A stretch of DNA of 64,000 nt from Gaiellaceae bacterium (GCA_035457655.1 DATIBF010000053.1:23182-87181); one strand, 5' to 3'. Numbered from the stretch's first letter, positions 27,905 through 64,000 are shown. Translations and numbers: made by a program. Notes: generated from the letters alone by a model not told the origin.

Positions 27905-27927
27905 CCGTCCCTCGCCTTCGGCTGAGT

Positions 27928-27958: not shown

Positions 27959-27992
27959 CTCCCTTCTCCCACGCTCATAAGCCAGGTGGCCC

Positions 27993-30877: not shown

Positions 30878-30887
30878 AGTCCTTTCG

Positions 30888-31577: not shown

Positions 31578-31609
31578 AATCGCCCGGCGTGCCTGCCGGA
31601 GCGAGGCCG

Positions 31610-36485: not shown

Positions 36486-36491
36486 GTGCTT

Positions 36492-41626: not shown

Positions 41627-42820
41627 ATGGGCGAGCCCATCTCCGTCGACGTGCTCGTGGTCGGCAGCGGCGCCTCGGGACTCGCGGCCGCGGTGTCCGC
41701 CGCGCGCGCGGGCGCACGCGTGGCGCTCGCGGCGAAGGCATCGCTCCAGTCGTGCAACTCGGCCAAGGCCCAGGGCGGCATCCAGGCGGCCTTCGGAGAG
41801 GACGATTCCCCGGAGCAGCACGCGGAGGACGTCTGGAAGAGCTCGCACGAGACGGCGAACATGGAGCTGGTCCACGTGCTCACGTCGGAAGCGCCGGGGA
41901 CGATCCACTGGCTCGAGGAGCACGGCGTCGAGTTCACCCGCTCGAACGGTGGCTACCGTCTCGCCCGCTGCGGCGGCGCGAGCCGTAGGCGCCTGCTCCA
42001 GGTCGGCGACCGCACTGGCCTCGCCATCACGAGCGCGCTGCGCGGCGCCGTCGAGGCCCCGACCGTCCTCACGCTGCCGAAGTCGCCTCTCTCCGAGCTC
42101 GAGGCTACCGGGAGCGGCTGGCGGGCCCGCTGCGGCGAGCACGTCGTCGAGGCGGGCGCGGTCGTGCTCGCGGCCGGCGGGCGGTGCTTCCGCGAGGCCG
42201 AGGAGCGCCGCGAGCTCACCACCAACCACCCCGGCGCGACCGGCGAGGTGACCCAGATCGCGCTCGGCCTGGGCGCCGAGGCGCGCGACCTCGACGCGCT
42301 CCAGTACCACCCGAACGGCGGCGCGTGGCCGGCGACCATGCAGGGCTACTCGATTCCCGAGACGACGCGCGCCTACGGAGCCGTGCTCCTGAACGCCGCG
42401 CGCGAGGAGTTCACCGACTCGCTCGGCCCCCGCGACGAGGTCTCGCAGGCGATCTTCGACGAGGTCGAGGAAGGACGCGGGGTCGAGAGCCCCGACGGCC
42501 GGCCGGCCGTGTGGCTCGACACCACCCGGATCTCGCCCGAGGACGCCGAGATCTCGCTCCCCTACATGCTCCGGCGCTATCGCGCGGCCGGGATCGATCC
42601 GCTCGCCGAGCCGATCCTCACCTATCCCGTCCTCCACTACCAGAACGGCGGGCTCGTGATCGACGAGCATGGCGAGACGACCGTCGAGGGGCTCTTCGCC
42701 TGCGGCGAGATCGCCGGCGGCACGCACGGCCGGAACCGGATGATGGGCAACTCGCTGCTCGAGTGCTGCGTCTTCGGGCGCCGGGCCGGGAACGCCGCGG
42801 CCGAGAAGGCGACGAGCTGA
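41627..42820 (+). CDS. FAD-dependent oxidoreductase of the FrdA/SdhA/NadB flavoprotein family, lacking the C-terminal helical domain
   Basis: VDVLVVGSGASGLAAAVSAARAG, AQGGIQAAF, LQYHPNG and GRNRMMGNSLLECCVFGRRAG. It is only 397 aa. Confidence 0.85.
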   Translation: MGEPISVDVLVVGSGASGLAAAVSAARAGARVALAAKASLQSCNSAKAQGGIQAAFGEDDSPEQHAEDVWKSSHETANMELVHVLTSEAPGTIHWLEEHGVEFTRSNGGYRLARCGGASRRRLLQVGDRTGLAITSALRGAVEAPTVLTLPKSPLSELEATGSGWRARCGEHVVEAGAVVLAAGGRCFREAEERRELTTNHPGATGEVTQIALGLGAEARDLDALQYHPNGGAWPATMQGYSIPETTRAYGAVLLNAAREEFTDSLGPRDEVSQAIFDEVEEGRGVESPDGRPAVWLDTTRISPEDAEISLPYMLRRYRAAGIDPLAEPILTYPVLHYQNGGLVIDEHGETTVEGLFACGEIAGGTHGRNRMMGNSLLECCVFGRRAGNAAAEKATS

Positions 42821-43713
42821 TGGCGGTCGCCACCGATCTCCAGAAGGTCGTCGAGGACGCCGCGGCGCACCTCTACGTCTGGGCGCTGAAGGACATCCCG
42901 CAGGATCTCCGCGACGCGCTCGCGGAGGCCGCCGGCCGGGAGACCTCCGTCCCGGGGCAGCGCGTCCTGCAGACGATCCTCAGGAACGTCGAGGTCGCGG
43001 AGGAGGAGCGCAACCTCGTCTGCCAGGACACCGGGATCGCGGTCTACTACTGCCGGGTCGGCGAGCACTTCCCGCTGCATCCGGCCCGGATCTACGAGGC
43101 GCTGTACGACGGCACCGAGCGCGCGACGGTCGAGCATCCGCTGCGCTCGAACACCGTTCACACGCTCACCCGCGAGAACACGGGCCAGAACGTCGGCCAC
43201 CGCGTGCCGATCGTTCACTGGGATTTCGTCGCCGACTGGGACGGGCTCGACGTCAAGTGCGTCCCCAAAGGCTCGGGCTCCGAGAACATGAGCTTCCTGA
43301 AGATGTGCGTGCCGGCCGACGGCGTCGCAGGGATCAAGCGCTTCGTGCTCGACTCGATCGTCGGCGCCGGGGGGAAGCCGTGCCCGCCCGGGATCGTCGG
43401 AGTCGGCATCGGCGGCTCGGCCGACTATGCGATGTACCTCGCCAAGGAGGCAATCGCCCGCCCGGTCGGGACTCGCAACTCCGACCCGCTCGTGGCGCAG
43501 CTCGAGGACGAGCTCAAGGAGCTCCTCAACGAGACCGGCATCGGCCCGATGGGCCTCGGCGGCGACGTCACCGTCCTCCAGTGCCACGTCGAGCACGCGG
43601 ACACGCACATGACCCTGAACCCGGTCGCCGTCAACTACCAGTGCTGGGCCGCGCGTCGAGCGACGGCGCACATCGCCGCCGACGGCTCGGTCGACTACGA
43701 CCGGGAGGCGTGA
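42820..43713 (+). CDS. Fe-S type (class I) hydro-lyase, fumarate/tartrate family, alpha subunit
   Basis: VCQDTGIAVYY, VPKGSGSENMS and GIVGVGIGGSAD. The ATG overlaps the upstream TGA (TGATG). Confidence 0.85.
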   Translation: MAVATDLQKVVEDAAAHLYVWALKDIPQDLRDALAEAAGRETSVPGQRVLQTILRNVEVAEEERNLVCQDTGIAVYYCRVGEHFPLHPARIYEALYDGTERATVEHPLRSNTVHTLTRENTGQNVGHRVPIVHWDFVADWDGLDVKCVPKGSGSENMSFLKMCVPADGVAGIKRFVLDSIVGAGGKPCPPGIVGVGIGGSADYAMYLAKEAIARPVGTRNSDPLVAQLEDELKELLNETGIGPMGLGGDVTVLQCHVEHADTHMTLNPVAVNYQCWAARRATAHIAADGSVDYDREA

Positions 43714-44297
43714 TGGAAGAGCATCGCCTCACCTTCCCCGCGTCCGAGGAGGCCGTCCGCGAGCTGCGGGCCGGCGACTCCGTGCTCGTCGACGGGCACG
43801 TCATCGGCATCCGCGACCGGACGCAGATCCGCATCTTCGACCAGGGCATCGCGCCGCCGCTCGACCTCACCGGAGCCTTCCTCCTGCACACCGCGCCGAA
43901 CGTCCGCAAGGTCGGCGAGGGCCGGTACGAAAAGCTCTGCATCGGGACGACGACGAGCGCGCGCATGGTGCGCTTCACCGAGCCGCTCGGCCGCGACTAC
44001 GGCGTGCGCGCCATCTGCGGCAAGGGCGGGCTCCCCGACGAGGCGATCGAGCCGATGCGCCGCTACGGGATGGTCTACTTCGCCATCGTCGGCGGCGCGG
44101 CGGCGCTCGAGACGACCCAGATCGAGGAGATCGAGGAGGTCTACTGGGAGGAGCTCATGCCCGAGTGCCTGTGGAAGTTCCGGGTCAAGGACTTCGGCCC
44201 GCTGACCGTCGCCATCGACTCGCACGGAACCTCGCTCTACCACGACGTCCAGGAAGAGGCGAAGAAGCGATTGGAGGATCTCTATGCCCGGCTTTGA
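43713..44297 (+). CDS. Fe-S type (class I) hydro-lyase, beta subunit
   Basis: AGDSVLVDGHVIGIRDRTQIRIF, ICGKGGL and FAIVGGAAAL. TGATG overlap with the alpha subunit. Confidence 0.85.
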   Translation: MEEHRLTFPASEEAVRELRAGDSVLVDGHVIGIRDRTQIRIFDQGIAPPLDLTGAFLLHTAPNVRKVGEGRYEKLCIGTTTSARMVRFTEPLGRDYGVRAICGKGGLPDEAIEPMRRYGMVYFAIVGGAAALETTQIEEIEEVYWEELMPECLWKFRVKDFGPLTVAIDSHGTSLYHDVQEEAKKRLEDLYARL

Positions 44298-45072
44298 CGG
44301 CTTTCTCGACGTGCCGGCGCGCTCGCCGAAGCCGCGCGTCAAGGGGCTCACCCACGTTCTCGACAAGGGGCTGAGCCTCCCCGACATCGAGGGCCTGTTC
44401 GACACGGCGGGCGACTACGTCGACATCGTCAAGCTCGGCTGGGGAACGTCGTACGTGACGAACAACCTCGAGAAGAAGATCGCCCTCTACCGCTCGTTCG
44501 AGACCCCGGTCGTCTGCGGAGGGACGCTCTTCGAGGCCGCCGTCGCGCGCGAGAAGCTCGATGAGTACAAGAGCTGGCTTTCCGCGAACCGGCTGGCGCA
44601 CGTCGAGGTCTCCGATGGGACGGTCGACCTCCCGCGCGAGCAGAAGCTTGAGCTCATCGCCGACCTGGCTCGGGACTTCGTGGTCCTGTCCGAGGTGGGC
44701 TCGAAGGACGCCGAAGTCGTCTTCCCACCCTTCCAGTGGGTCGAGTGGATCAAGGAGGACCTCGACGCCGGCGCGTGGAAGGTGATCACCGAGGGTCGCG
44801 AGACCGGCACCGCCGGCATCTACAGGCCTTCCGGCGACATGCGCACAGGGCTCATCGACGAGATCGTGCACGAGATCGATGTGTCGGACGTCGTGTTCGA
44901 GGCGCCCGCCAGCGCGGCGCAGGCCTGGTTCGTCCAGCGCTTCGGCCCCGAGGTCAATCTCGGCAACATCCCGCCGGAGGAGGTCATCCCGCTCGAGACT
45001 CTTCGCCTGGGGCTCCGGGCCGACACGCTGAGGGAGGTGCTCCTGCGTGACGAGCCTGCTCTCGCTGACTGA
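44284..45072 (+). CDS. comA: (2R)-phospho-3-sulfolactate synthase
   Basis: Close collinear resemblance to archaeal ComA as I remember it: VLDKGL, GDYVDIVKLGWGTS, GGTLFE, VEVSDG, LSEVG, DLDAGAWKVITEGRE, VVFEAP and IPLETLRLGLRADT. Confidence 0.85.
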   Translation: MPGFDGFLDVPARSPKPRVKGLTHVLDKGLSLPDIEGLFDTAGDYVDIVKLGWGTSYVTNNLEKKIALYRSFETPVVCGGTLFEAAVAREKLDEYKSWLSANRLAHVEVSDGTVDLPREQKLELIADLARDFVVLSEVGSKDAEVVFPPFQWVEWIKEDLDAGAWKVITEGRETGTAGIYRPSGDMRTGLIDEIVHEIDVSDVVFEAPASAAQAWFVQRFGPEVNLGNIPPEEVIPLETLRLGLRADTLREVLLRDEPALAD

Positions 45073-45739
45073 GTCGGAGATCGAGGCGTTGCCGGCAGAG
45101 GACGTCCTCCGCTGGGCGGCGGAGGAGTTCGGCGACCGGCTCTGCCTCTCGTGCTCCTGGCAGAAGCAGTCCTCGGTGCTCGTGCACATGGTCTCCGAGC
45201 TCGGGCTCGACGTCGACTTCGTCGAGCTCGACACCCACCTCTTCTTCAAGGAGTCCTACGAGACGCGCGAGCGGCTCGTCGAGCGCTACGGGATCACGTT
45301 GATCGTCCCGGAGGTGCTGACGATCGCCGAGCAGCACAGGCGCGAGGGGCCGAACCTCTGGGAGACGAACCCCGACCGCTGCTGCCACATCCGGAAGGTC
45401 GAGCCGTTGCTTCGCCTGCTGGAGCCGTACGACGCGTGGGTCTCCGGCATCCGCCGCGAGCAAGCGCCGTCGCGCGCGAGCGCGCGGAAGGTCGAGCGCT
45501 CCGAGCGCTACGGCGTCTGGAAGGTGCAGCCCCTGGCGGACTGGAGCGAGAAGGAGGTCTGGCTGTACATCCTCCAGAACGACATCCCCTACAACCCGCT
45601 CCACGACGTCGGCTACCGTTCCATCGGCTGCATCCCGTGCACGAGGCCCACGAGGCCCGACGAGGAGGAGCGCGCGGGGCGCTGGGCCGGCTCCGACAAG
45701 CTGGAGTGCGGCATCCACGTCGAAGACAAGGACACGTAG
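45047..45739 (+). CDS. cysH: Assimilatory APS/PAPS reductase, Fe-S-cluster (APS-reductase) type
   Basis: SCSWQKQSSVLVHM, DRCCHIRKVEPL, SIGCIPCT (CC...CxxC cluster ligands) and C-terminal ECGIH. Confidence 0.9.
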   Translation: MTSLLSLTESEIEALPAEDVLRWAAEEFGDRLCLSCSWQKQSSVLVHMVSELGLDVDFVELDTHLFFKESYETRERLVERYGITLIVPEVLTIAEQHRREGPNLWETNPDRCCHIRKVEPLLRLLEPYDAWVSGIRREQAPSRASARKVERSERYGVWKVQPLADWSEKEVWLYILQNDIPYNPLHDVGYRSIGCIPCTRPTRPDEEERAGRWAGSDKLECGIHVEDKDT

Positions 45740-45751
45740 AAGGAGACAGGT

Positions 45752-46351
45752 TTGAGCGAGCACATTTTCGCCCACGAGCACCCGGAGTCCGACCGCGCGC
45801 GCGGCGGCGGCTTCACGATCTGGTTCACGGGTCTCTCGGGCTCCGGCAAGTCGACGATCGCGCACCTCGTCGGCCCGGCCCTGGACGAGCGCGGGCACAT
45901 CGTCGAGTACCTCGACGGCGACACCGTCCGCACCCATCTCTCGAAGGGCCTCGGCTTCTCGAAGGAGGACCGCGACACGAACATCGAGCGCATCGGCTGG
46001 GTCGCTTCGCGCATCACGCGCCACGGTGGGGCTGCCATCACCGCGGCCATCTCGCCCTACGTGGAGACGCGGCAGAAGGCGCGCGAGATGGTGGAGCAGT
46101 TCGGGCCGTTCGTCGAGGTCTTCGTCAAGGCGTCGGTCGAGGAGTGCGCGCGGCGGGACGTCAACGGTCTCTACGCCAAGGCCTTCGCCGGCGAGATCAA
46201 GGGCTTCACCGGCGTGGACGACCCGTACGAGGAGCCGGAGAGCCCGGAGATCATCGTCGACACGGAGGCGCAGACCCCGGAAGAAAGCGCCCAGATCGTC
46301 GTCCAGCGCCTGGAGGAACTCGGGCTCGTCGGCGCCGAGGTGCGGGCGTGA
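45752..46351 (+). CDS. cysC: Adenylylsulfate (APS) kinase
   Basis: [37 protein letters not shown] and SPY. TTG start with AAGGAGA upstream. Confidence 0.95.
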
Positions 46352-47484
46352 GCGCGGTCACGACGGACCACCTCATCCGTCCGCACGGCGGCGTTCTCGT
46401 TGAGCGCTCGGGCCCGCGACCCGACGACGTCGACTCGCTCGAAGTGATGACGCTCACCTCCCGCGAGCTCTCCGACCTCGACATGCTCGCCTCGGGCGCG
46501 CTCTCCCCGCTCACCGGCTTCATGGGCCGCGAGGACTACGAGGGAGTCGTCGAGTCGATGCAGCTCGCCAACGGCCTCCGCTGGGCCCTGCCCGTCTGCC
46601 TGGCGGTCGCCGAGGCGCCGAAGGGCGACCGGGTGGCGCTCGCGGACGAGTCGGGCCGCCGGCTCGCCGTGCTCGACGTCGAGGAGGTGTACTCCTACGA
46701 CAAGGAGCGCGAGGCCGAACAGTGCTTCCGGACGGCCGACGGCGAGCATCCGGGCGTGGCCCAGCTGTACGCGCAGGAGAGCTCGTACCTGGCCGGTTCG
46801 GTGAGCGTGTTCGAGCGGCTCGAACCCGAGTTTCCGGAGCTGCACCGCGATCCGGCCGACACGCGGGCGCTCTTCGCCGAGCGTGGCTGGCGGGGCGTGG
46901 TCGGCTTCCAGACCCGCAACCCCATCCACCGAGCGCACGAGTACCTGACGAAGTGCGCGCTCGAGACCGTGGACGGCCTGCTCATCCACCCGCTCGTCGG
47001 CGCGACGAAGTCGGACGACGTTCCCGTTGACGTCCGCGTGAAGGCCTACGACATTCTCGTCGAGGGCTACTACCCGGCCGACCGCGTCGTCGTCTCCGCC
47101 TTCCCGGCCGCCATGCGTTACGCAGGGCCGCGGGAGGCGATCTGGCACGCGATCTGCCGCAAGAACTACGGCTGCTCGCACTTCATCGTCGGGCGCGACC
47201 ATGCCGGCGTGGGCAACTACTACGGCACCTACGACGCCCAGCTCATCTTCGACGAGTTCGAGCCGCACGAGCTCGACATCGAGCCGATGTTCTTCGAGCA
47301 CTCGTTCTGGTGCAAGGTCTGCGGCCAGATGGCGACGGCAAAGACCTGCCCGCACGGAGGCGACGACCACGTCTTCCTCTCGGGCACGAAGGTGCGCGAG
47401 CTGCTCTCGGCGGGCAAGCTGCCGCCGGAGGAGTTCACGCGTCCCGAGGTCGCGGAGATCCTGATCGAGGCATACCGCGGCTAG
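46348..47484 (+). CDS. sat: Sulfate adenylyltransferase (homo-oligomeric ATP sulfurylase)
   Basis: [33 protein letters not shown] and [13 protein letters not shown] 46348 overlaps the cysC stop (GTGA). Confidence 0.95.
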
Positions 47485-47537
47485 AACCCGTGTCGAAATG
47501 ACGCCTCGGGACAGGGCTTCGTTTTGACACGGGTTCT
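47483..47537 (+). promoter_or_regulatory. 16-bp stem / 23-nt loop structure pairing the sat stop codon region with the TTG start of the downstream sulfotransferase
   Basis: AGAACCCGTGTCGAAA (47483-47498) pairs with TTTTGACACGGGTTCT (47522-47537) with one G-U. TTG 47524-47526 lies inside the 3' arm. Confidence 0.6.
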
Positions 47538-48534: not shown

Positions 48535-48536
48535 AG

Positions 48537-50456: not shown

Positions 50457-50516
50457 GTGTCCGTCGGTAGCCCAGTCTACGTCACGGTCCGGCACGGGCC
50501 GCGCCGCCGCTCTCGC

Positions 50517-50522
50517 TAAGCT
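50517..50522 (+). promoter_or_regulatory. -10-like TAAGCT, 7 nt upstream of ATG 50530 (leaderless-type arrangement) in a 73-nt divergent intergenic region
   Basis: Fits TANNNT, with no SD. Confidence 0.3.
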
Positions 50523-50529
50523 GCGCGCG

Positions 50530-53603: not shown

Positions 53604-53627
53604 AGTAAGCAACCGGAGCCACTCGGC

Positions 53628-55340: not shown

Positions 55341-55366
55341 GCGGAGGGGTGCCCACGGGCACTCGG

Positions 55367-55372
55367 TATCCT
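55367..55372 (+). promoter_or_regulatory. -10-like TATCCT, 8 nt upstream of ATG 55381
   Basis: Fits TANNNT, with no SD before the ATG. Confidence 0.25.
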
Positions 55373-55380
55373 CCTCGCCC

Positions 55381-56886: not shown

Positions 56887-56901
56887 CCCGTCCCGAGCGG
56901 C

Positions 56902-58371: not shown

Positions 58372-58479
58372 ACTGGGCGGCCGGTCCGGCGGTGGCGGCT
58401 GCTATGGTCGCCGGTTGCTGCAGGTCATCATCGAGGCGCGGGAACACGCGCAGGCTGTGAAAACGGAAGGGAGCTCCGA

Positions 58480-59655
58480 ATGCGGGTCCTGATTCTCGGC
58501 GGCGACGGCTACCTTGGTTGGCCCACGGCCATGCGCTTCTCCGGGCAGGGTCACGAGGTCGCGGTGGCCGACAGCTTCGCGCGCCGCCGCTGGGTCGAGG
58601 AGGCCGGCTCGCATTCCCTCACTCCCATCGTCTCCCTCGTCGAGCGGATCCAGGCCTGGAGCGAGGTCTCGGGCAAGGACATCGAGCCGTACGTCGGCGA
58701 CATCGCCGAGGGCACCTTCATCGCCGACGTCGTCCGGGAGTTCGAGCCCGACGCGATCGTCCACTACGGCGAGCAGCCGAGCGCGCCGTGGTCGATGAAG
58801 AGCGTCGACCACGCGGTCATGACGCAGGCGAACAACGTCATCGGCTCGCTCAAGCTTCTGTGGGCGATGCGCGACTACGCCCCCGCCGCCCACCTGATCA
58901 AGCTCGGGACGATGGGCGAATACGGAACGCCCAACATCGACATCGAGGAGGGCTTCATCGAGATCGACCACAAGGGCCGCAAGGACACCCTTCCCTTCCC
59001 GAAGCTGCCCGGGTCGCTCTACCACCTCTCGAAGGTGCACGACAGCCACAACATCCACTTCGCGTGCCGAATCTGGGGGCTCCGCGCGACCGACCTCAAC
59101 CAGGGCGTCGTCTACGGCATCGAGACTCCCGAGACGCGCCTCGACGACCGCCTCATCACGAGGTTCGACTACGACGAGCTGTTCGGCACGGCCCTGAACC
59201 GGTTTGCCGTGCAGGCCGTGATCGGGCACCCACTGACGGTCTACGGGAAAGGCGGCCAGACGCGCGGGTTCCTGAACATCGTCGACACGCTGCAGTGCGT
59301 CTCGCTCACGGCGGAGAACCCGCCGACCGAGGGCGAGTACCGCGTTTTCAACCAGTTCACGGAGGTCTTCAACGTCGGCGACCTGGCGGAGAAGGTCCGC
59401 CACGCCGCGGGCGAGCTCGGGATCGACGTGCGGGTCGACCACGTGACCAACCCGCGTCTCGAGCTGGAGGAGCACTACTACAACCCGACGCATACGAAGC
59501 TCCTCGAGCTGGGACTGCAGCCGACGCTGCTCTCCGAGACCCTGATCGAGTCCATGCTCGAGGTCATCCGCCGCTACCAGGATCGCGTCCTCGCCGACGT
59601 CATCGATCCGGTGACGCAGTGGCGCCCTGAGCCGCTGAGTCAGCGCGCGGAGTAG
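58480..59655 (+). CDS. sqdB: UDP-sulfoquinovose synthase (SQD1/SqdB/Agl3 family)
   Basis: Near-collinear match to plant SQD1 as I remember it: ILGGDGYLGWPTA, SLTPI, HYGEQPSAPWSM, KLGTMGEYGTPNIDIEEG, catalytic YHLSKVHD (Tyr-His...Lys), RATDLNQGVVYG, FGTALNRF, HPLTVYGKGGQTRGFL, RVFNQFTE and EEHYYNPTHTKL. Confidence 0.9.
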   Translation: MRVLILGGDGYLGWPTAMRFSGQGHEVAVADSFARRRWVEEAGSHSLTPIVSLVERIQAWSEVSGKDIEPYVGDIAEGTFIADVVREFEPDAIVHYGEQPSAPWSMKSVDHAVMTQANNVIGSLKLLWAMRDYAPAAHLIKLGTMGEYGTPNIDIEEGFIEIDHKGRKDTLPFPKLPGSLYHLSKVHDSHNIHFACRIWGLRATDLNQGVVYGIETPETRLDDRLITRFDYDELFGTALNRFAVQAVIGHPLTVYGKGGQTRGFLNIVDTLQCVSLTAENPPTEGEYRVFNQFTEVFNVGDLAEKVRHAAGELGIDVRVDHVTNPRLELEEHYYNPTHTKLLELGLQPTLLSETLIESMLEVIRRYQDRVLADVIDPVTQWRPEPLSQRAE

Positions 59656-59669
59656 GGCACTCGGGCGAG

Positions 59670-60722
59670 ATGGACCTGACGCCGCTTCGGGCCGCCGGGC
59701 TGCTTGCGGCGCTCGCGTTCGCGGTCGTCTCCATCTGGGCGTACCGCCGGCGGCGAATCGGCAACGGCGACCTGATCCTCCGGTTCGGGTTCTTCGTCCT
59801 CCCGCTGCTCGTCGTCTCCCTGCAGCCGGCGATCTTCAGCTGGTTCCTCGACCTATTCTCCTTCAACGAGGAGGGCGCCGGCCGGATCCTCGGCGCCGCG
59901 ATCGTGGCCGTCGCGGTGCTCTACGTTCTTGGCTACATCCTCGCCTCGCGCCAGGAGAAGACACGCCGCGACCTGACGCGGCTGATCGAGAACCTCGCCC
60001 TGAACGAGTTCCAGGCGACGGCCGACGTCGACGAGTTCGCCGGCGGGATCGCCGTCGTCATCCCCGCCTACAACGAGGCCGGCAACATCGGCCTGGTGAT
60101 CGCGAGCCTGCCCCCCGAGGTCTCCGGTCTCGAGCTCCACGCTATCGTGGTCGACGACGGCTCCTCCGACGAGACGATCGGCCGCGCGCGTCAGGCTGGG
60201 GCGGCGGCGGTGCACCTCCCCCTCAACCGCGGCCAGGGCGCGGCGCTTCGCACCGGCTACAGGTTGGCCCTCGCGACGGGCGCGCGCCTCGTCGTGACCA
60301 TGGACGCGGACGGCCAGCACCAGCCCTCCGAGCTCCCCCGCCTCGTCCAGCCGATCCTCGACGACGAGGTGGACGTCGTCAACGGCTCTCGCGTCCTCGG
60401 CGCGGCCGACCCGAACCATGCCGCCCGGATACTGGGCATCAAGGTCTTCGCCTGGGCCCTCTCGCTCTTGACGACCAGCCGCGTCACCGATCCTGCGTGC
60501 GGCTATCGCGCCGTCCGCACCGAAGCGCTCCGCGAGCTCGAGTTCCACCAGGACCAGTTCCACAACTCGGAGTTCATCCTCGAGGCGTCCAAGCGCAAGC
60601 TCAGGACGATGGAGGTGCCGGTGACGGTGTCGAGCCGGCTCTCGGGGGCGTCGAAGAAGCCGCCGCACTTCCGCTACGGGCTGGGGTTCGCGAACGCTCT
60701 GCTCCGGGCGTGGCTGCGCTAG
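59670..60722 (+). CDS. GT2 glycosyltransferase of the polyprenyl-phosphate-sugar synthase type, with an N-terminal three-helix membrane module (DUF2304-like)
   Basis: Three N-terminal TM helices, then IAVVIPAYNEAGNIG, VVDDGSSDET, LNRGQGAALRTG, VTMDADGQH and NGSR. Confidence 0.85.
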   Translation: MDLTPLRAAGLLAALAFAVVSIWAYRRRRIGNGDLILRFGFFVLPLLVVSLQPAIFSWFLDLFSFNEEGAGRILGAAIVAVAVLYVLGYILASRQEKTRRDLTRLIENLALNEFQATADVDEFAGGIAVVIPAYNEAGNIGLVIASLPPEVSGLELHAIVVDDGSSDETIGRARQAGAAAVHLPLNRGQGAALRTGYRLALATGARLVVTMDADGQHQPSELPRLVQPILDDEVDVVNGSRVLGAADPNHAARILGIKVFAWALSLLTTSRVTDPACGYRAVRTEALRELEFHQDQFHNSEFILEASKRKLRTMEVPVTVSSRLSGASKKPPHFRYGLGFANALLRAWLR

Positions 60723-62581
60723 CGGACCGCGACGGCAGTACCGCAGAGTCGGAGGCGAGGCCGGAAGCGTTCGTCCGCGTCCTTCGCTCTCGTCTCTTCG
60801 AGGAAGCCCTCGTCGTGACGATCGCGCTCCTGGCCACGCTGCATGCCGAGTGGCGCATCGTCTCGCAGGCGCTGACTTTCCAGACGGACTCGATGATCCA
60901 CGAGTTCTGGATGCGACGGTTCCGGGACGACGGGCTCTTCGGCGACCCGCTCACCGAGTCTCTCCTCGAGACGGGCTACAGCCCACCCGCATTCCGTGCC
61001 CTGTACTGGCTTGCGAGCCGCGTCGTCGACCCGGTCACGTTCGGCGAGCTGCTGCCCCTCGTGCTCCAGCCGCTGGCCGTGTGGCTGGTTTTCAGGATCG
61101 TCCGCACGCAGGTGTCCTGGCGTCCCGCCGCTTGGATCTCGGGCGCTCTCTTTCTCGTGCCGTGGGAGATACACCGCTTCAGCGGCGGCCACCCCCGCGC
61201 GTTCGCGCAGCCGATCGTGTTACTGACCGTCCTCCTACTGCTCTCACGGAGGAACCGCGCCGCGGCCCTCGTCCCGCCCGTTGGGCTCCTCCTCTATCCG
61301 CCCGCCGGCGTCGTCGCTCTCGCCGTCGTGCTGCTTTCGACGCTCGCCCGAGATCGGCGCGCCTACGTCGATGTCGAGCGCGCACGCTGGGCTGCCGTCA
61401 GCGTTCTGGGAGTTGTGGCGGCGTTCGTCCTCACGCGGTTCACGACCGGATCGCAGGATGTGATCACGGAGGCCGAGGCTCGCCTCTACCCCGAGTTCGG
61501 ACCAGGCGGCCAGATGCACTTCTTCGCCTCGTCGACGCTCGAGTACCTGCGCCAGAACTACAGCGGCTTCTTCCTTCAGGAGTCCGGCTCGATCATCGCG
61601 GTCACCGCGCTGCTCCTCCTGCTCGTCCGTCCGTCCAACACGCGGCTCCTCCGCTGGGAGGTCTGGACGATTCCGATCGTCGCGCTCGCACTCTTCCTCC
61701 TCGCGCACGCCCTCCTCTTCCGTCTCTACCTTCCACACCGCTACACGTACGCGCTGCTGCCGTTCTTCTGCATCGCCATAGGAGTCTTCCTGCGTCCCAC
61801 TCTCCAGGCCCTCTCCGCGCGTGGGCGTGCTGCCCTCGTCGTGGCACCGTTGCTCGGGCCGGCCGCCGCCTTCCTCGCGTTGGCGTTCTTCCCGCTCGGA
61901 CCTCGCTTCTCGGTCGCGGAGTTCGGCTCCTGGCTGGCGGACGCGGCGCCCGAGCTCGTCGTGGGTCTACTCGCAGGGCTCCTCTTGGCGGTGGCACTCT
62001 GGCCCAGGGAGCCCGGAGGAGCACGCTCGTTCGCGGCGGCGGCGCTCGCCGTGCCGGCGGCGCTCGTCACCGCGGCAGTGCTGGTCGCGACGGTTGCCGT
62101 CGCGGGTGGTGGACGGAGCCCTGGAGCAGTTGCCTGCCAGGAAGCCGAGCTCTACAGCTTCCTCGAGACCGTGCCGAAGGAGTCGGTCCTCGCGGCCGAC
62201 CCGCTCGACGCGAACTGCATCCCGATCGCCGCCCGGCGACCCGTCGTGATCTCGCGGAAGCTCTACCAGCCGTGGGCGGTCGAGTACTTCGACGTCATCC
62301 GCGAGCGGATGTCCGCCTCCGTCGAGGCGTTCTACGGCCCCTCGCTGTCGGCGGTGACCGAGCTGCGCGAGCGCTACGGAGCTGACTACCTCGTCGTTCG
62401 CACCCGCGGCCAGGCACACGCCTGGGGGAGCATGCAGCCGTTCACGAGCGAGGTTTCACGGCTCCGGCGCACGACCGAGGTACCCGCGGTGGAGCGACTG
62501 CCCCGTCGCTGCCTCTCGTGGAGCGGGGAGCGCTACGAGGTCTACAGCCTCGCCTGCCTGGCCGGGGAGGAGTCGGCGTGA
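60710..62581 (+). CDS. Large polytopic membrane protein (GT-C-like candidate) with a C-terminal soluble domain
   Basis: About 12 TM helices followed by a roughly 150-aa extracytoplasmic-looking tail. GTG 60710 overlaps the GT2 stop; GTG 60815 is an alternative start. Confidence 0.7.
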   Translation: MAALADRDGSTAESEARPEAFVRVLRSRLFEEALVVTIALLATLHAEWRIVSQALTFQTDSMIHEFWMRRFRDDGLFGDPLTESLLETGYSPPAFRALYWLASRVVDPVTFGELLPLVLQPLAVWLVFRIVRTQVSWRPAAWISGALFLVPWEIHRFSGGHPRAFAQPIVLLTVLLLLSRRNRAAALVPPVGLLLYPPAGVVALAVVLLSTLARDRRAYVDVERARWAAVSVLGVVAAFVLTRFTTGSQDVITEAEARLYPEFGPGGQMHFFASSTLEYLRQNYSGFFLQESGSIIAVTALLLLLVRPSNTRLLRWEVWTIPIVALALFLLAHALLFRLYLPHRYTYALLPFFCIAIGVFLRPTLQALSARGRAALVVAPLLGPAAAFLALAFFPLGPRFSVAEFGSWLADAAPELVVGLLAGLLLAVALWPREPGGARSFAAAALAVPAALVTAAVLVATVAVAGGGRSPGAVACQEAELYSFLETVPKESVLAADPLDANCIPIAARRPVVISRKLYQPWAVEYFDVIRERMSASVEAFYGPSLSAVTELRERYGADYLVVRTRGQAHAWGSMQPFTSEVSRLRRTTEVPAVERLPRRCLSWSGERYEVYSLACLAGEESA

Positions 62582-63702
62582 GCGGCCCGCTGAGCTCCGG
62601 GCGGCGCAGGCGGCTCACCTCCTATGTCCTCGCCACCGCGGTGACGGTGGCCTTCGCGTACCTCGCCGTGCGCGACGTCGACGTCGCCGAGCTCGGCCGG
62701 TCATTACGCGAGAGCAACTACTGGTATCTCGTACCCGCGTTCGCCCTCCTGGCTCTTGCCTTCTTCATGCGCGTCCTCCGCTGGCGCTCGTTGTTCTCCC
62801 CCCGGACGCGACCCGGTCTGTGGCCGCTCTCGAAGGCGCTCCTGCTCGGTCAATTCTTGAACAACGTTCTCCCCTTCCGAGCGGGTGACGCGGCTCGTGT
62901 CGTCGTCTTGCGATCGTTCGGCGGCCCGTCCCGGGTCGAGACGGCCGGGACCGTCGTCGTCGAGCGGATCTTCGACGTTCTCGCGCTCCTCCTGCTCCTC
63001 TTCGTTTCTTTGCCGTGGCTTCCCGAGGTGACGTGGATCCAGGCGGCGGGCACGCTCGCGATCGCGTTCGTCGTCCTCGTGGCAGCCGCAGTCGTCGTCT
63101 TGCGCGTGTACGGCGAGAGAGCCGTCGGTTTCGTCCTGCGTCCGCTGGTCCGCCTTCCCTTCCTCTCACCGAAGCGCGTCGAGGCGGCCGTCCGAAATCT
63201 GACCGTGGGAGTCATCGCCCTACGGAGCGCGCGTGTCGGGCTCGTCGGCTTTGCCTGGACGCTGCTCTCGTGGGTCGTCTTCGGCTTCTCGTTCTGGTTC
63301 GTCATGCTCGGATTCGATCTCGGGCTGTGGCCGGAGGCAGGCGTCTTCGTCGTCATCACGACCGGACTGTCCCACCTCCTTCCGTCGGCGCCGGCCGCGG
63401 TTGGCGTGTTCGAGGCCGCGGCCGTCGTGGCGTTGATCGCCTACGGGATCCCGCGCGCGGAGGCGCTCTCATACGCGCTCGTCGTGCACGCGCTTAGCGT
63501 GCTCCCGTTCGTGGCGGCGGGCCTCCTTCTCGTCAGCCTGCGTGGGCGCGACCAGGGTCTTCGCGCCGAGGAATCGGCTTTCCAGGCCTCCGGTCCCTCC
63601 GTGCTTCGCGGAGACCGGGAGCGGGCGGGCGACGACGAGGACGACGTCACCCAGCCAGCCAACCGGCAGCCTGAAGTCGACCAGGCTCGTGAGTCGCGCT
63701 GA
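62578..63702 (+). CDS. UPF0104 / lysyl-PG-synthase-TM-like (flippase-like) membrane protein
   Basis: The GTG overlaps the upstream stop (GTGA). FFMRVLRWRSLF, LLLGQFLNNVLPFRAGDAARV and about 8 TM helices. Confidence 0.75.
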   Translation: MSGPLSSGRRRRLTSYVLATAVTVAFAYLAVRDVDVAELGRSLRESNYWYLVPAFALLALAFFMRVLRWRSLFSPRTRPGLWPLSKALLLGQFLNNVLPFRAGDAARVVVLRSFGGPSRVETAGTVVVERIFDVLALLLLLFVSLPWLPEVTWIQAAGTLAIAFVVLVAAAVVVLRVYGERAVGFVLRPLVRLPFLSPKRVEAAVRNLTVGVIALRSARVGLVGFAWTLLSWVVFGFSFWFVMLGFDLGLWPEAGVFVVITTGLSHLLPSAPAAVGVFEAAAVVALIAYGIPRAEALSYALVVHALSVLPFVAAGLLLVSLRGRDQGLRAEESAFQASGPSVLRGDRERAGDDEDDVTQPANRQPEVDQARESR

Positions 63703-64000
63703 GGCCTCGCCGCCCCGCCCGAGGCTCGACTTCATCCGGTTGGCGACATACGAGAGGTGGAACGAGCGGGGGACGAGCGCCCACTCCACCATCCTGTAGC
63801 CCGCCGAGCGTAGAAGCGCCTCGACCGTGGCGGGTGTGAAGTAGTGCAGGTGGGGACGGATCAGCCAAGGCCATCTCTCTCCTCGCAGCCTCGCGTGGAG
63901 GCCTGCGAGGTTGATCGTGGAGAGCGTGAGCAGGCCCTCGTCGTCGAGCAGCGTCCGAAGTCTCCGGAGCGCGTCGAGCGGATCCACGAGGTGCTCGAGG
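63469..64000 (-). CDS. Class I SAM-dependent methyltransferase, C-terminal part (5' end beyond the right edge of the window)
   Basis: The frame is open to nt 64000 (LEHLVDPLDALRRLRTLLDDEGLLTLST, HLHYFTPATVEALLRSAGY and VVLVVARP). Confidence 0.7.
   Translation of the reverse strand, partial: LEHLVDPLDALRRLRTLLDDEGLLTLSTINLAGLHARLRGERWPWLIRPHLHYFTPATVEALLRSAGYRMVEWALVPRSFHLSYVANRMKSSLGRGGEASARLTSLVDFRLPVGWLGDVVLVVARPLPVSAKHGGTGGLESRFLGAKTLVAPTQADEKEARRHEREHAKRVHDERV

What the first reader, a model, noticed from the sequence alone, without database searches (positions are those of the whole stretch)
41627..64000. A 22-kb island in which one sulfate-activation module appears to feed three different sulfur-transfer chemistries for the cell envelope
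Seen in the sequence, all within one contiguous stretch:
- sat, cysC and an Fe-S-type cysH.
- Two sulfite-consuming C-S bond-forming enzymes, ComA and SqdB.
- Three PAPS-type sulfotransferases of visibly different sequence families (47524, 48537 and 50530).
- At least three GT-C-like polytopic proteins, two GT2 domains, a Wzx-like flippase, a UPF0104 protein, an NPP-type phosphodiesterase and a methyltransferase.

APS is therefore a branch point. CysC takes it to PAPS for O- or N-sulfation. CysH takes it to sulfite for sulfonate formation. No sulfite reductase or cysteine synthase gene is present, so the module does not look like ordinary assimilation.

Inference: this is a dedicated locus for a heavily sulfated and/or sulfonated envelope glycoconjugate. 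I do not recognise this combination from described loci. The mycobacterial sulfolipid, rhizobial Nod-factor and cyanobacterial SQDG loci each contain only one of these chemistries.
Basis: partly seen in the sequence, partly recalled or inferred. Interest (0 to 1): 0.75.

Follow-up and report, generated by a model that had tools for sequence, protein, structure and literature searches.

The report
Sulfonate operon beside sulfated-glycan locus
In an uncultured soil actinobacterium (Gaiellaceae), an order-wide operon that activates sulfate and fixes sulfite onto a three-carbon acid lies next to a gene set for a sulfated, probably sulfo-sugar-decorated surface polysaccharide, so the gene inventory is real but it is two modules rather than one dedicated island.

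Summary
These are Sat, CysC, an Fe-S-type CysH, ComA, a genuine UDP-sulfoquinovose synthase, three distantly related PAPS sulfotransferases, Wzx, NPP, UPF0104 and GT2 domains. One polytopic protein is a confirmed GT-C.

They encode a truncated fumarate-reductase-like flavoprotein and a two-subunit Fe-S fumarase-like hydro-lyase, both translationally coupled to ComA.

I surveyed 52 Gaiellales species genomes.
- **Module A** is the conserved unit: LysR, Fe-ADH, FAD, FumAB, ComA, CysH, CysC, Sat or CysDN, and TauE. The hydro-lyase genes are present in 44 of 52 loci.
- **Module B** is the sulfotransferase, SqdB and glycan part. It lies beside module A in only about 4 of 52. Elsewhere it occurs in the same gene order without the operon.

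The APS branch point (PAPS for sulfation, sulfite for C-S bond formation) is supported. The claim of one dedicated envelope island is only partly supported.

The ComA branch more likely makes a small sulfonate by the route phosphosulfolactate, then sulfoacrylate, then 3-sulfopropanoate (inferred). Sulfoquinovose probably reaches the envelope on a polyprenyl-phosphate carrier, as in the GacI/GacJ system (inferred). I could not test whether a second assimilatory gene set exists.

The parts
36486..37388 (+). LysR-family regulator, a conserved upstream partner of the ComA operon
   Evidence: Pfam HTH_1 plus LysR_substrate. An orthologue lies within 10 kb of ComA in 41-47 of 52 Gaiellales loci.
37385..38362 (+). 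Short Fe-ADH-family dehydrogenase, a conserved partner. It may act on a sulfonated aldehyde or alcohol (inferred).
   Evidence: Pfam ADH_Fe_C and Fe-ADH. The best NCBIfam match is 4-hydroxybutyrate dehydrogenase, and SarD sulfoacetaldehyde reductase also matches; all are far below cutoff. Present in 34-35 of 52 loci.
40279..41577 (+). MFS_3 efflux-type transporter, 49 nt upstream of the operon. It is a candidate exporter in lineages such as this one that lack TauE here.
   Evidence: Pfam MFS_3 at 1e-46. Adjacent to the operon in L002, L003 and L088 and in 8-9 of 52 loci. No TauE homologue is in the window.
41627..42820 (+). Truncated (397 aa) fumarate-reductase / L-aspartate-oxidase-like flavoprotein. 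Proposed sulfoacrylate reductase (inferred).
   Evidence: FAD_binding_2 at 4e-65. It lacks the C-terminal domain and scores below the nadB, TfrA and FrdA cutoffs. Alignment to E. coli FrdA keeps the QYHP, R(AYG), HYxxGG and HGxNR substrate residues, and there is no covalent-FAD His. It is 87-100% identical across the 120 closest Gaiellaceae cluster representatives.
42820..43713 (+). Alpha subunit of a class-I (Fe-S) fumarase-type hydro-lyase. Proposed (phospho)sulfolactate to sulfoacrylate step (inferred).
   Evidence: Fumerase at 7e-91. 253 bits to fumarate hydratase 7XKY_A. The CQDTG, CPP and QCWA cluster cysteines are present. Its start overlaps the stop of the FAD gene.
43710..44297 (+). 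Beta subunit of the hydro-lyase
   Evidence: Fumerase_C at 4e-27, TIGR00723 at 150 bits. It overlaps both neighbouring genes.
44284..45072 (+). Phosphosulfolactate synthase ComA (PEP + sulfite)
   Evidence: PF02679 at 279 bits. PDB 1U83 and 1QWG. TIGR03849 scores 236 against a cutoff of 280.
45047..45739 (+). Fe-S-type APS/PAPS reductase CysH
   Evidence: PAPS_reduct at 7e-48, NF002537 at 249 bits. CC...CxxC and ECGIH motifs.
45752..46351 (+). APS kinase CysC
   Evidence: APS_kinase at 5e-61, TIGR00455 at 212 bits against a cutoff of 139.
46348..47484 (+). ATP sulfurylase Sat
   Evidence: PUA_2 plus ATP-sulfurylase, NF003166 at 524 bits. Replaced by CysDN in 10 relatives.
47524..48534 (+). Cytoplasmic PAPS sulfotransferase (Sulfotransfer_3)
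   Evidence: PF13469 at 2e-36. PRSGTT and RDPRD..S motifs.
48537..50456 (-). Fusion of a Sulfotransfer_2 domain and a GT-A (GT2-like) glycosyltransferase domain
   Evidence: PF03567 at 7e-8 plus weak PF00535. The AF2 model matches only GT-A/GT2 enzymes in the PDB. 428 homologues were found; the 120 listed are at least 61% identical, and those that carry a name are Gaiellaceae.
50530..51603 (+). Divergent cytoplasmic sulfotransferase
   Evidence: PF13469 at 1e-6. GRSGTS and RHP..S motifs. It always lies divergently beside the ST2-GT2 gene in relatives.
51600..53534 (-). DUF6077 polytopic protein (13 predicted TM). Candidate GT-C for the sulfoquinovose branch (unverified).
   Evidence: PF19554 at 2e-10. 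TM prediction. Invariant R153/D157/D158/Y161 loop. Part of the conserved block in L087.
53634..55340 (+). Polytopic membrane protein with no family match. The start is uncertain, somewhere in 53484-53727.
   Evidence: No Pfam or NCBIfam hit even at E=1. Orthologues in L002 and L017.
55381..56886 (+). Cytoplasmic NPP / alkaline-phosphatase-superfamily enzyme, role unknown
   Evidence: Phosphodiest at 3e-29. 81% identical in L087, where it travels with Wzx and SqdB rather than with ComA.
56902..58371 (+). Wzx/MOP-family flippase
   Evidence: Polysacc_synt at 6e-13 plus MatE. 13 predicted TM.
58480..59655 (+). UDP-sulfoquinovose synthase (SqdB/SQD1)
   Evidence: 508 bits to 1QRR over its full length, with catalytic motifs kept. 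NF041015 scores 502 against a cutoff of 575. 89% identical in L087.
59670..60722 (+). DUF2304 (GacJ-like) fused to a GacI/PpgS-type GT2. Proposed polyprenyl-phosphate sulfoquinovose synthase (inferred).
   Evidence: DUF2304 plus Glycos_transf_2. Best NCBIfam matches are PpgS, AglJ and dolichyl-P hexose transferase. It starts 14 nt after SqdB, and the pair is conserved in L087 and L090. Precedent in 10.1101/180810.
60710..62581 (+). GT-C-fold glycosyltransferase (DUF2079/DUF6311-like)
   Evidence: AF2 pLDDT 90.1, pTM 0.90. Foldseek matches STT3, ArnT (TM 0.50/0.56), PglB, DPY19 and ALG9. Start taken from L084.
62578..63702 (+). LPG_synthase_TM / UPF0104 flippase-like protein
   Evidence: PF03706 at 2e-46. 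It follows the GT-C gene in L088 and L089 as well.
63469..64000 (-). C-terminal part of a GT2+methyltransferase fusion that runs off the window
   Evidence: Methyltransf_23. The full gene in L085 is at least 615 aa with GT2 plus Methyltransf_23. The same trio (GT-C, UPF0104, GT2-MTase) occurs in L089.

Best explanation
The interval is two juxtaposed modules in a Gaiellaceae (Thermoleophilia, Actinomycetota) genome.

**Module A (about 36.5-47.5 kb)** is an order-wide operon.
- Sat makes APS.
- CysC makes PAPS.
- The Fe-S CysH makes sulfite.
- ComA adds sulfite to PEP to give phosphosulfolactate.
- The co-translated Fe-S fumarase-like hydro-lyase then probably forms sulfoacrylate, the sulfonate analogue of fumarate. 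The truncated fumarate-reductase-like flavoprotein probably reduces it to 3-sulfopropanoate, or to a close derivative handled by the Fe-ADH.
- The product is a small sulfonate that is kept in the cell or exported. Export would be by TauE in most relatives and perhaps by the MFS_3 transporter here.

**Module B (47.5 to beyond 64 kb)** is a Gaiellaceae surface-glycan locus.
- Three cytoplasmic PAPS sulfotransferases, one fused to a GT-A glycosyltransferase, sulfate a lipid-linked glycan.
- SqdB makes UDP-sulfoquinovose from sulfite.
- The fused GacJ/GacI-type GT2 loads sulfoquinovose onto polyprenyl phosphate.
- A Wzx or UPF0104 protein flips it across the membrane.
- A polytopic transferase adds it to the glycan outside the membrane. 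DUF6077 is the best-linked candidate. The verified GT-C at 60710 belongs to a parallel GT-C/UPF0104/GT2-methyltransferase set.

Module A supplies PAPS and sulfite to module B. Their adjacency is lineage-specific.

**Shown:** the domain identities, the catalytic motifs, the operon coupling, the synteny statistics and the GT-C fold.

**Inferred:** all substrates after ComA, the polyprenyl-phosphate sulfoquinovose intermediate, the acceptor glycan, and the flow of sulfite and PAPS between the modules.
For: - **Taxon:** named database hits are Gaiellaceae, Gaiellales or Thermoleophilia.
- **Operon coupling:** the start and stop codons of the FAD, FumA, FumB, ComA, CysH, CysC and Sat genes overlap or lie at most 12 nt apart (coordinates).
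- **Module A conservation:** in 52 species-level loci, FAD is present in 43, FumA and FumB in 44, CysH in 37-41, CysC in 39-43, Sat or CysDN in 38, TauE in 38 and LysR in 41-47.
- **Stronger constraint on module A:** its proteins are 83-95% identical in relatives where the sulfotransferases are 62-80% identical.
- **TauE tracks ComA:** TauE stays beside ComA even where cysH and sat are absent from the locus (L035, L050, L054, L064).
- **Flavoprotein active site:** it keeps the H-R-H-R dicarboxylate site.
- **Hydro-lyase cluster:** it keeps the three cluster cysteines.
- **Non-orthologous parallel:** in other lineages ComA is preceded by an aspartase/fumarase-superfamily lyase (L123 and L127). 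That is the enzyme type shown in Xanthobacter to turn phosphosulfolactate into sulfoacrylate (PMC9457059).
- **The chemistry has been reported:** a 3-sulfopropanoate, sulfoacrylate, sulfolactate sequence has been reported in catabolism, and a TauE is proposed there as a 3-sulfopropanoate exporter (PMC11489063).
- **Module B conservation:** g51, g50, DUF6077, NPP, Wzx, SqdB (89%) and DUF2304-GT2 (76%) keep the same order in L087.
- **Many sulfotransferases in relatives:** they cluster with Wzy_C, GT4, GT8 and ABC2 genes.
- **SqdB identity:**
- **GacI/GacJ/GacK/GacL and PpgS/Rv3632 precedent,** including known DUF2304-GT2 fusions.
- **GT-C fold:**
- **GT-A fold of the fusion protein:**
Against: - No step after ComA has biochemical support.
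- The hydro-lyase alpha subunit passes NCBI's 'fumarate hydratase' equivalog cutoff (307 against 276) and is close to fumarate hydratase 7XKY_A (253 bits). It could simply be the cell's fumarase.
- No ComB-type phosphatase is present to make free sulfolactate.
- Eight of the 52 loci have ComA, CysH, CysC, CysDN and TauE without FAD or FumAB. The two enzymes are therefore not obligatory neighbours.
- The electron donor for the truncated flavoprotein is unknown.
- TauE could be a sulfate or sulfite importer rather than a product exporter.
- The DUF6077 protein is not verified as a GT-C.
- The verified GT-C also occurs with rhamnose genes and no SqdB (L089).
- Sat, CysC and CysH may also be the genome's only assimilatory set.
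Confidence: 0.5

Rival explanations
1. Ordinary assimilation. Sat, CysC and CysH are the genome's single, general sulfate-assimilation set, with sulfite reductase encoded elsewhere. ComA, SqdB and the sulfotransferases simply draw on a housekeeping pool. On this reading nothing here is a 'dedicated' activation module. This overlaps with the best explanation rather than excluding it.
For: - In about 8 of the mapped relatives the FAD-FumAB-ComA-TauE genes stand without cysH and sat, so those genes must lie elsewhere and serve the whole cell.
- Sat is swapped for CysDN in 10 loci, which is the behaviour of an interchangeable housekeeping function.
- A LysR regulator and a TauE/CysZ-like permease are typical companions of assimilatory cys operons (my own knowledge of the Corynebacterium cysZ cluster, not tested here).
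- Module B also exists without the operon nearby.
Against: - No sulfite reductase, CysK or CysE is in the 64 kb or in the Pfam-annotated 10-kb flanks of the relatives.
- CysC is not needed for assimilation through an Fe-S APS reductase, yet it is kept in 39-43 of 52 loci.
- The cys genes are translationally coupled to ComA.
Confidence: 0.3
2. All three chemistries, including the ComA-derived sulfonate, decorate one heavily sulfated and sulfonated envelope glycoconjugate that this island makes.
For: - The genes are contiguous here and in L002, L003/L007, L017, L019 and L088.
- In most Gaiellales the ComA operon is flanked by glycan genes: PglF, DegT, PglC, AsnB and DUF354 upstream, and Wzy_C, GT87 and PIG-L downstream.
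- In other lineages ComA is fused to or sits beside ATP-grasp or AMP-binding/ACP ligases, a GT4 or WbqC. ComA-derived acids can therefore be ligated onto other molecules.
Against: - No ligase, acyltransferase or nucleotidyltransferase that could attach a sulfonated acid is in the conserved operon or in the window.
- The two modules separate freely.
- The operon's constant partner is a small-molecule permease.
Confidence: 0.12
3. The FAD and FumAB genes are housekeeping enzymes: a class-I fumarase and a soluble aspartate oxidase or fumarate reductase. They share an operon with ComA by accident of genome organisation. ComA's product is just (phospho)sulfolactate, as in Bacillus spores.
For: - The alpha subunit scores above the NCBIfam fumarate hydratase equivalog cutoff and 253 bits against fumarate hydratase 7XKY_A.
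- Conservation is very high, 87-95%.
- Eight loci lack these genes beside ComA.
Against: - The fixed order FAD-FumA-FumB-ComA with overlapping codons is seen in 43-44 of 52 species loci.
- The flavoprotein lacks the C-terminal domain and scores far below the NadB, Frd and Sdh cutoffs.
- A different fumarase-type lyase occupies the same position beside ComA in other lineages.
Confidence: 0.22
4. Catabolic reading. The operon takes up a sulfonate such as 3-sulfopropanoate through TauE or the MFS transporter, oxidises and hydrates it to sulfolactate, and releases sulfite.
For: A 3-sulfopropanoate, sulfoacrylate, sulfolactate route has been reported in Roseovarius (cited in PMC11489063). TauE/TSUP proteins also include importers (my own knowledge).
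Against: - Sat, CysC and a thioredoxin-type CysH in the same operon only make sense in the biosynthetic direction.
- No sulfolactate sulfo-lyase (SuyAB) or kinase is present.
- ComA is known only as a synthase.
Confidence: 0.06

Closest known systems
Bacterial coenzyme M pathway of Xanthobacter autotrophicus (XcbB = ComA, XcbC/XcbD aspartase-fumarase-superfamily lyases, XcbE, XcbA; PMC9457059)
   Same: The first step is ComA (PEP + sulfite). A 'fumarase-type' enzyme is encoded next to ComA, and in Xanthobacter that enzyme yields sulfoacrylate.
   Different: Here the neighbour is a class-I Fe-S hydro-lyase, which is unrelated to the class-II/aspartase superfamily. It comes with a fumarate-reductase-like flavoprotein. 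There is no second lyase, no PLP enzyme and no XcbA, so no route to a thiol. The cys genes are inside the operon.
Archaeal coenzyme M pathway and Bacillus YitD/YitC sulfolactate synthesis (ComA, ComB, ComC, ComDE)
   Same: A ComA orthologue: 219 bits to B. subtilis 1U83 and 157 bits to 1QWG.
   Different: No ComB phosphatase, ComC dehydrogenase or ComDE decarboxylase domains are in the window.
GacI/GacJ/GacK/GacL side-chain system of the Streptococcus pyogenes group A carbohydrate, and PpgS/Rv3632/Rv3779 of M. tuberculosis (10.1101/180810)
   Same: A GT2 polyprenyl-phosphate sugar synthase with a DUF2304 partner (fused here), a Wzx-type flippase, and polytopic GT-C-type transferases in the same locus.
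   Different: The sugar-nucleotide gene immediately upstream is a UDP-sulfoquinovose synthase rather than one supplying GlcNAc or GalNAc. The cognate GT-C is not identified.
SQDG sulfolipid loci (cyanobacterial sqdB-sqdX, Rhodobacter sqdA-D, plant SQD1/SQD2) and Sulfolobus Agl3 N-glycan sulfoquinovose (PMC4388408)
   Same: A genuine SqdB/SQD1-type UDP-sulfoquinovose synthase.
   Different: No SqdX/SQD2 (GT4) or SqdD (GT8) lipid glycosyltransferase is in the 64 kb. The partner is a DPM1/GacI-like GT2, so the target is more likely a glycan than diacylglycerol. Unlike Sulfolobus, the host is a bacterium and a monophosphate carrier is implied.
Synechan (xss) sulfated exopolysaccharide cluster of Synechocystis (PMC8205485), and rhizobial NodH/NoeE/LpsS sulfation
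   Same: PAPS sulfotransferases are embedded in a Wzx(/Wzy)-type polysaccharide locus. The weak NCBIfam hit of g49 is to NoeE.
   Different: The host is an actinobacterium. One sulfotransferase is fused to a GT-A domain. The locus also holds SqdB and, in this lineage, lies beside the sulfate-activation operon.

Membership tests
UDP-sulfoquinovose synthase (SQD1/SqdB/Agl3) | Full-length SDR-type similarity to a solved SQD1, with the catalytic Thr, Tyr-His and Lys retained | tested here: met
   E 1.7e-151, residues 2-383 aligned to 3-384 of 1QRR. GTMGEYG and YHLSKVHD are identical.
UDP-sulfoquinovose synthase (SQD1/SqdB/Agl3) | Score above the NCBIfam equivalog cutoff (NF041015) | tested here: not met
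   502 bits against a cutoff of 575. The match covers the full length of the model, 1-384.
Phosphosulfolactate synthase (ComA) | Full-length match to the ComA family and to solved ComA structures | tested here: met
   PF02679 at 279 bits, positions 2-243 of 243; 1U83, 1QWG. TIGR03849 is below cutoff at 236 against 280.
Fe-S assimilatory APS reductase (CysH type) | PAPS_reduct fold plus the CC...CxxC cluster cysteines and a C-terminal ECG(L/I)H | tested here: met
   CCHIRK, CIPC and ECGIH. The APS-specific model TIGR02055 scores 211 against a cutoff of 235, so the APS versus PAPS preference is not settled.
PAPS-dependent sulfotransferases | 5'-PSB (P/G-K/R-x-G-T/W-T/S) and 3'-PB (R-D/H-P...S) motifs, plus a Pfam sulfotransferase domain | tested here: met
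   for all three proteins. The g51 match is weak (29 bits against a cutoff of 27).
GT-C glycosyltransferases | GT-C membrane fold with a periplasmic C-terminal domain (protein 60710-62581) | tested here: met
   pLDDT 90. The 19 hits with E<=0.001 are all GT-C enzymes (STT3, ArnT, PglB, DPY19, ALG9). Invariant D60 and D79 lie near the first loop.
GT-C glycosyltransferases | The same, for 51600-53534 (DUF6077) and 53634-55340 | tested here: inconclusive
   Both are polytopic. DUF6077 has a conserved DD loop. hhalign against the verified GT-C family gives a probability of about 4%.
GacI/PpgS-type polyprenyl-phosphate glycosyl synthases | GT2 catalytic domain with DxD, plus a DUF2304 (GacJ/Rv3632) partner | tested here: met
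   (DDGSSD, DADGQ). Precedent. The sugar and lipid substrates cannot be tested with these tools.
Class-I (Fe-S) fumarate hydratase / tartrate dehydratase | Alpha subunit with three cluster cysteines, plus a beta subunit | tested here: met
   The alpha subunit is above the NF004885 cutoff (307 against 276). The beta subunit is below NF004708 (151 against 269) but above TIGR00723.
Fumarate reductase / succinate dehydrogenase / L-aspartate oxidase flavoproteins | FAD and capping domains with H-R-H-R, plus the C-terminal helical domain | tested here: not met
   The substrate residues are kept. The protein ends at residue 397, has no Succ_DH_flav_C domain, and is far below every equivalog cutoff. 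It is a truncated relative, not a member of NadB, FrdA or SdhA.
Bacterial Xcb coenzyme M pathway | Two aspartase/fumarase-superfamily lyases, a PLP desulfhydrase-like enzyme and XcbA next to ComA | tested here: not met
   No Lyase_1 or PLP enzyme is in the operon. Lyase_1 lies beside ComA only in other lineages.
SQDG sulfolipid pathway | An SqdX/SQD2 (GT4) or SqdD (GT8) lipid glycosyltransferase accompanying SqdB | tested here: not met
   No GT4 or GT8 domain is in the window. Genes elsewhere in the genome could not be examined.

The most novel reading that the evidence does not exclude
Gaiellales make a so far undescribed C3 sulfonate, 3-sulfopropanoate or a derivative. The proposed route is a third fate of phosphosulfolactate. 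An Fe-S class-I fumarase paralogue and a truncated fumarate-reductase paralogue would run 'malate, fumarate, succinate' chemistry on the sulfonate analogues, fed by an in-operon sulfate-to-sulfite supply.

In addition, some Gaiellaceae would deliver sulfoquinovose to a sulfated cell-surface polysaccharide through a polyprenyl-phosphate carrier. That would be a bacterial sulfoquinovose glycoconjugate that is not a diacylglycerol lipid.
Probability: 0.3. Interest if true: 0.8.

Novelty: new variant of a known kind. Interest (0 to 1): 0.6.

Why it matters
Gaiellales are among the most abundant uncultured actinobacteria in soils, and almost nothing is known about their envelope or sulfur metabolism.

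- **If the operon makes and releases a C3 sulfonate,** it is a new biological source of organosulfonates in soil. It would also be a new enzymatic route from ComA, with two well-known TCA-type enzymes recruited to sulfonate analogues.
- **If sulfoquinovose and sulfate esters decorate the envelope,** this extends sulfated polysaccharides beyond cyanobacteria and rhizobia. It also extends sulfoquinovose beyond thylakoid-type lipids and archaeal N-glycans. A strongly anionic surface of this kind could be relevant to desiccation tolerance, metal binding and phage resistance.

All of this is testable in the cultured relative Gaiella occulta, provided it carries the genes.

Tried and rejected
- **Non-coding signals.** An Rfam scan of the whole window found no riboswitch or RNA family. 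The promoter and terminator scan gave nothing above shuffled expectation.
- **Genome scan query.** A 35-sequence ComA alignment was too diverse to use, so I replaced it with an 11-sequence one. The best 80 loci were all Gaiellales, so the genome scan said nothing about other phyla. I used a metagenome scan with a sister-clade ComA for that instead.
- **DNA beyond the window end.** Only 4.9-6.7 kb contigs carry the exact proteins.
- **Literature.** The Gaiella occulta genome paper says nothing about assimilatory sulfate reduction. No paper links Gaiellales with sulfotransferases, sqdB or phosphosulfolactate.
- **GT-C status of g52 and g53.** Profile-profile comparison of the verified GT-C with the two other polytopic proteins found nothing.
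- **Horizontally acquired island: rejected.** There is no GC deviation, and the flanking genes are housekeeping (menaquinone, cytochrome bc, haem).
- **NPP enzyme as the missing ComB-like phosphatase: rejected.** It travels with Wzx and SqdB in L087, not with ComA.
- **Coenzyme M synthesis: rejected.** No downstream Xcb or ComB-E genes are present.
- **Not possible with these tools.** I could not search complete Gaiellales chromosomes for a second cys set, sulfite reductase, another fumarase or a full-length NadB.

Full report
**Gene calling and the observation**

The window is 67-73% GC throughout, so raw ORF lists are dominated by spurious frames. I called genes from third-position GC and a codon model trained on the window, then scanned the products against Pfam and NCBIfam.

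- Sat is at 46348-47484, CysC at 45752-46351 and CysH at 45047-45739. CysH carries the CC...CxxC Fe-S cysteines and ECGIH.
- ComA is at 44284-45072. It scores 219 bits against the B. subtilis structure 1U83.
- The protein at 58480-59655 aligns end to end with Arabidopsis SQD1 at E 1.7e-151. The catalytic GTMGEYG and YHLSKVHD motifs are intact, so it is a real UDP-sulfoquinovose synthase.
- Three cytoplasmic sulfotransferases lie at 47524 (+), 48537-50456 (-) and 50530 (+). Each has both PAPS-binding motifs. The first and third share only a 72-residue local match.
- The 639-aa minus-strand protein is a Sulfotransfer_2 domain fused to a GT-A glycosyltransferase domain. The Foldseek hits of its AF2 model are all GT2/GT-A enzymes.
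- Wzx, an NPP-type phosphodiesterase, a DUF2304-GT2 fusion, an LPG_synthase_TM protein and the tail of a GT2-methyltransferase fusion complete the list.

Of the 'three GT-C-like' proteins, only 60710-62581 could be verified. Its AF2 model has pLDDT 90, and the 19 PDB matches with E<=0.001 are all GT-C enzymes (STT3, ArnT, PglB, DPY19, ALG9). The DUF6077 protein and the family-less protein ending at 55340 remain unverified.

No sulfite reductase or cysteine synthase domain occurs anywhere in the 64 kb.

- 41627-42820 encodes a 397-aa FAD_binding_2 protein. It is a fumarate-reductase / L-aspartate-oxidase relative without the C-terminal domain.
- 42820-43713 and 43710-44297 encode the alpha and beta subunits of a class-I Fe-S fumarase-type hydro-lyase.

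Their stop and start codons overlap one another and ComA. The overlaps or gaps of at most 12 nt continue through CysH, CysC and Sat. This is one seven-gene, translationally coupled operon (coordinates).

The flavoprotein keeps the His-Arg-His-Arg set that binds fumarate, succinate or aspartate in FrdA. It lacks the covalent-FAD histidine. The hydro-lyase keeps its three cluster cysteines and scores 253 bits against fumarate hydratase 7XKY_A.

**Organism and conservation**

Named database hits identify a Gaiellaceae MAG in Thermoleophilia, Actinomycetota. I scanned one genome per GTDB species with a ComA alignment. The 80 best loci were all Gaiellales or Thermoleophilia, and 52 had full 10-kb flanks.

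I ran tblastn with the window proteins and, separately, clustered de novo gene calls into families. The typical arrangement is:

LysR > Fe-ADH > FAD > FumA > FumB > ComA > CysH > CysC > Sat (or CysD-CysN) > TauE

Counts out of 52 loci:

| Gene | Loci |
|---|---|
| FAD | 43 |
| FumA, FumB | 44 |
| CysH | 37-41 |
| CysC | 39-43 |
| Sat or CysDN | 38 |
| TauE (PF01925) | 38 |
| LysR | 41-47 |
| Fe-ADH | 34-35 |

Two variants exist. Eight loci have ComA, the cys genes and TauE without FAD or FumAB. About eight have FAD-FumAB-ComA-TauE without cysH and sat.

The sulfotransferase genes behave differently.
- Orthologues of the ST2-GT2 gene and its divergent neighbour occur next to ComA in only 2-3 of 52 loci, with a partial copy in a fourth.
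- The 47524 sulfotransferase has no orthologue at 40% identity or better in any of them.
- A different Sulfotransfer_3 gene is present in 16 loci, in two cases directly beside cysC.

The ST2-GT2 protein is itself common: 428 homologues, of which the 120 listed are at least 61% identical. I looked at five contigs centred on it. Three lie beside the operon (L002, L003, L088) and two do not (L086, L087). In L087 the block g51, g50, DUF6077, NPP, Wzx, SqdB (89% identical) and DUF2304-GT2 (76%) is in the window's order with no sulfate operon within 10 kb.

The interval is therefore two modules.
- **Module A** is order-wide and more strongly conserved, at 83-95% identity against 62-80% for the sulfotransferases.
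- **Module B** is a Gaiellaceae glycan locus that is only sometimes its neighbour.

**Module A mechanism**

Shown:
- The operon contains what is needed to take sulfate to APS, PAPS and sulfite, and to fix sulfite onto PEP.
- It contains no sulfite reductase.
- It keeps CysC, which an Fe-S APS reductase does not need.

Inferred: the hydro-lyase and the flavoprotein act on ComA's product.
- (2R)-sulfolactate is the steric analogue of L-malate. Sulfoacrylate is the analogue of fumarate, and 3-sulfopropanoate that of succinate.
- That sequence has been reported in the catabolic direction, and a TauE protein has been proposed as a 3-sulfopropanoate exporter (PMC11489063).
- In Xanthobacter an aspartase/fumarase-superfamily lyase next to ComA eliminates phosphate from phosphosulfolactate to give sulfoacrylate (PMC9457059).
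- In a metagenome survey of a sister ComA clade, none of the 71 loci had FumAB or FAD beside ComA. Two contigs of 50-53% GC had exactly such a Lyase_1 gene directly upstream of ComA.

Two unrelated 'fumarase-type' enzymes in the same position beside ComA is the best argument that FumAB makes sulfoacrylate here. The flavoprotein would then reduce it.

The constant partners are a LysR regulator, a short Fe-ADH whose nearest named relatives are 4-hydroxybutyrate and sulfoacetaldehyde reductases, and a small-molecule permease. No ligase or transferase is among them. I therefore read the product as a free sulfonate rather than an envelope substituent.

Weak points:
- There is no ComB-type phosphatase.
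- The electron donor is unknown.
- The alpha subunit passes NCBI's fumarate hydratase cutoff, so a housekeeping fumarase cannot be excluded.

**Module B mechanism**

Three soluble sulfotransferases sit in a locus with Wzx. In relatives the locus also holds Wzy_C, GT4, GT8, ABC-2 transporters and up to six or more further sulfotransferases. One of the three is fused to a GT-A domain. This points to a sulfated surface polysaccharide that is sulfated on the cytoplasmic face. The closest described case is the synechan cluster of Synechocystis (PMC8205485).

SqdB is followed after 14 nt by a protein that fuses DUF2304 to a GT2. The nearest named relatives of that GT2 are PpgS, AglJ and dolichyl-phosphate hexose transferases. 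DUF2304 is the GacJ/Rv3632 family, which activates the polyprenyl-phosphate sugar synthases GacI and PpgS. Fusions of the two are known, and those systems use a Wzx-type flippase and a GT-C transferase (10.1101/180810).

The order Wzx, SqdB, GacJ/I-like here mirrors that logic, and the pair is conserved in L087 and L090. No SqdX or SqdD lipid glycosyltransferase is in the window. I therefore infer polyprenyl-phosphate sulfoquinovose as a donor for extracytoplasmic decoration of a glycan.

The best-linked polytopic partner is the DUF6077 protein. The verified GT-C at 60710 travels instead with the LPG_synthase_TM protein and a GT2-methyltransferase, including in a locus with rhamnose genes and no SqdB (L089). 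It probably belongs to a parallel decoration system.

**Verdict on the interpretation**

The APS branch-point idea is reasonable and partly backed by synteny: the cys genes are co-operonic with ComA, and cysC lies beside a sulfotransferase in relatives.

'One island feeding three chemistries for the envelope' overstates the case. The linkage between activation and the sulfation/SqdB genes is lineage-specific. The ComA branch has its own conserved enzymology and a transporter, with no visible link to the envelope.

The tools gave no access to whole Gaiellales genomes, and the G. occulta genome paper is silent on the point.

**Novelty**

Each chemistry is known separately.

I found no description, in the searches I could run, of the following:
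- the order-wide FAD-FumAB-ComA-cys-TauE operon;
- the SqdB plus GacJ/I-type pairing;
- sulfotransferase-rich glycan loci in Thermoleophilia.

I file the finding as a new variant of known kinds, of moderate to good interest. All substrate assignments beyond domain identity are inference.

Noticed in passing
window 10496-13942: A GtrA-family protein (PF04138), a 613-aa protein with no family match and a GT87 polytopic glycosyltransferase lie together. They look like a second polyprenyl-phosphate-sugar / membrane glycosyltransferase set unrelated to the island.
   Followed up: no
window 7878-9320: A second NPP/Phosphodiest paralogue (1e-32) lies far from the island.
   Followed up: no
window 19366-29090: Housekeeping block: UbiD/UbiX/UbiE-type genes, a polyprenyl synthase, MqnA and two CofH/MqnC-type radical SAM genes (futalosine menaquinone route), and Rieske/cytochrome b/c genes. 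It shows that the sulfur region sits in core genome.
   Followed up: partly
window 63469-63702: The LPG_synthase_TM gene (+) and the GT2-methyltransferase gene (-) overlap convergently by 234 nt. The last 55 or so residues of the plus-strand product are low-complexity and may not be real.
   Followed up: no
L123:6447-10038 and L127:6445-10526: In organisms of 50-53% GC, ComA is preceded by an aspartase/fumarase-superfamily lyase (Lyase_1). In L127 it is followed by CysH and a WbqC-family polysaccharide protein. This is an Xcb-like start with a different continuation.
   Followed up: partly
P0270, P0321, P0323, P0353, P0246 (ComA cluster representatives): ComA occurs fused to AMP-binding(-ACP) modules and to an ATP-grasp ligase. 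ComA-derived sulfonated acids therefore appear to be activated and ligated in other lineages.
   Followed up: no
L088:1-9887: At least six separate sulfotransferase genes surround the ST2-GT2 gene next to the ComA operon in one Gaiellaceae contig.
   Followed up: no
L090:2688-8776: Sulfatase (PF00884) gene fragments lie beside the SqdB/DUF2304-GT2 genes in a frameshift-rich long-read contig.
   Followed up: no
window 36486-37388: The LysR regulator scores 244.5 bits on NCBIfam 'selenium metabolism-associated LysR' (cutoff 250), which is its best match.
   Followed up: no
window 29153-34580: Further glycan genes lie upstream of module A: an NAGPA phosphodiester glycosidase with a FlgD-Ig domain, a DedA protein, a DegT/PseC-type aminotransferase and a PglF/PseB-type membrane-anchored 4,6-dehydratase. 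The same families flank the ComA operon in many relatives.
   Followed up: partly
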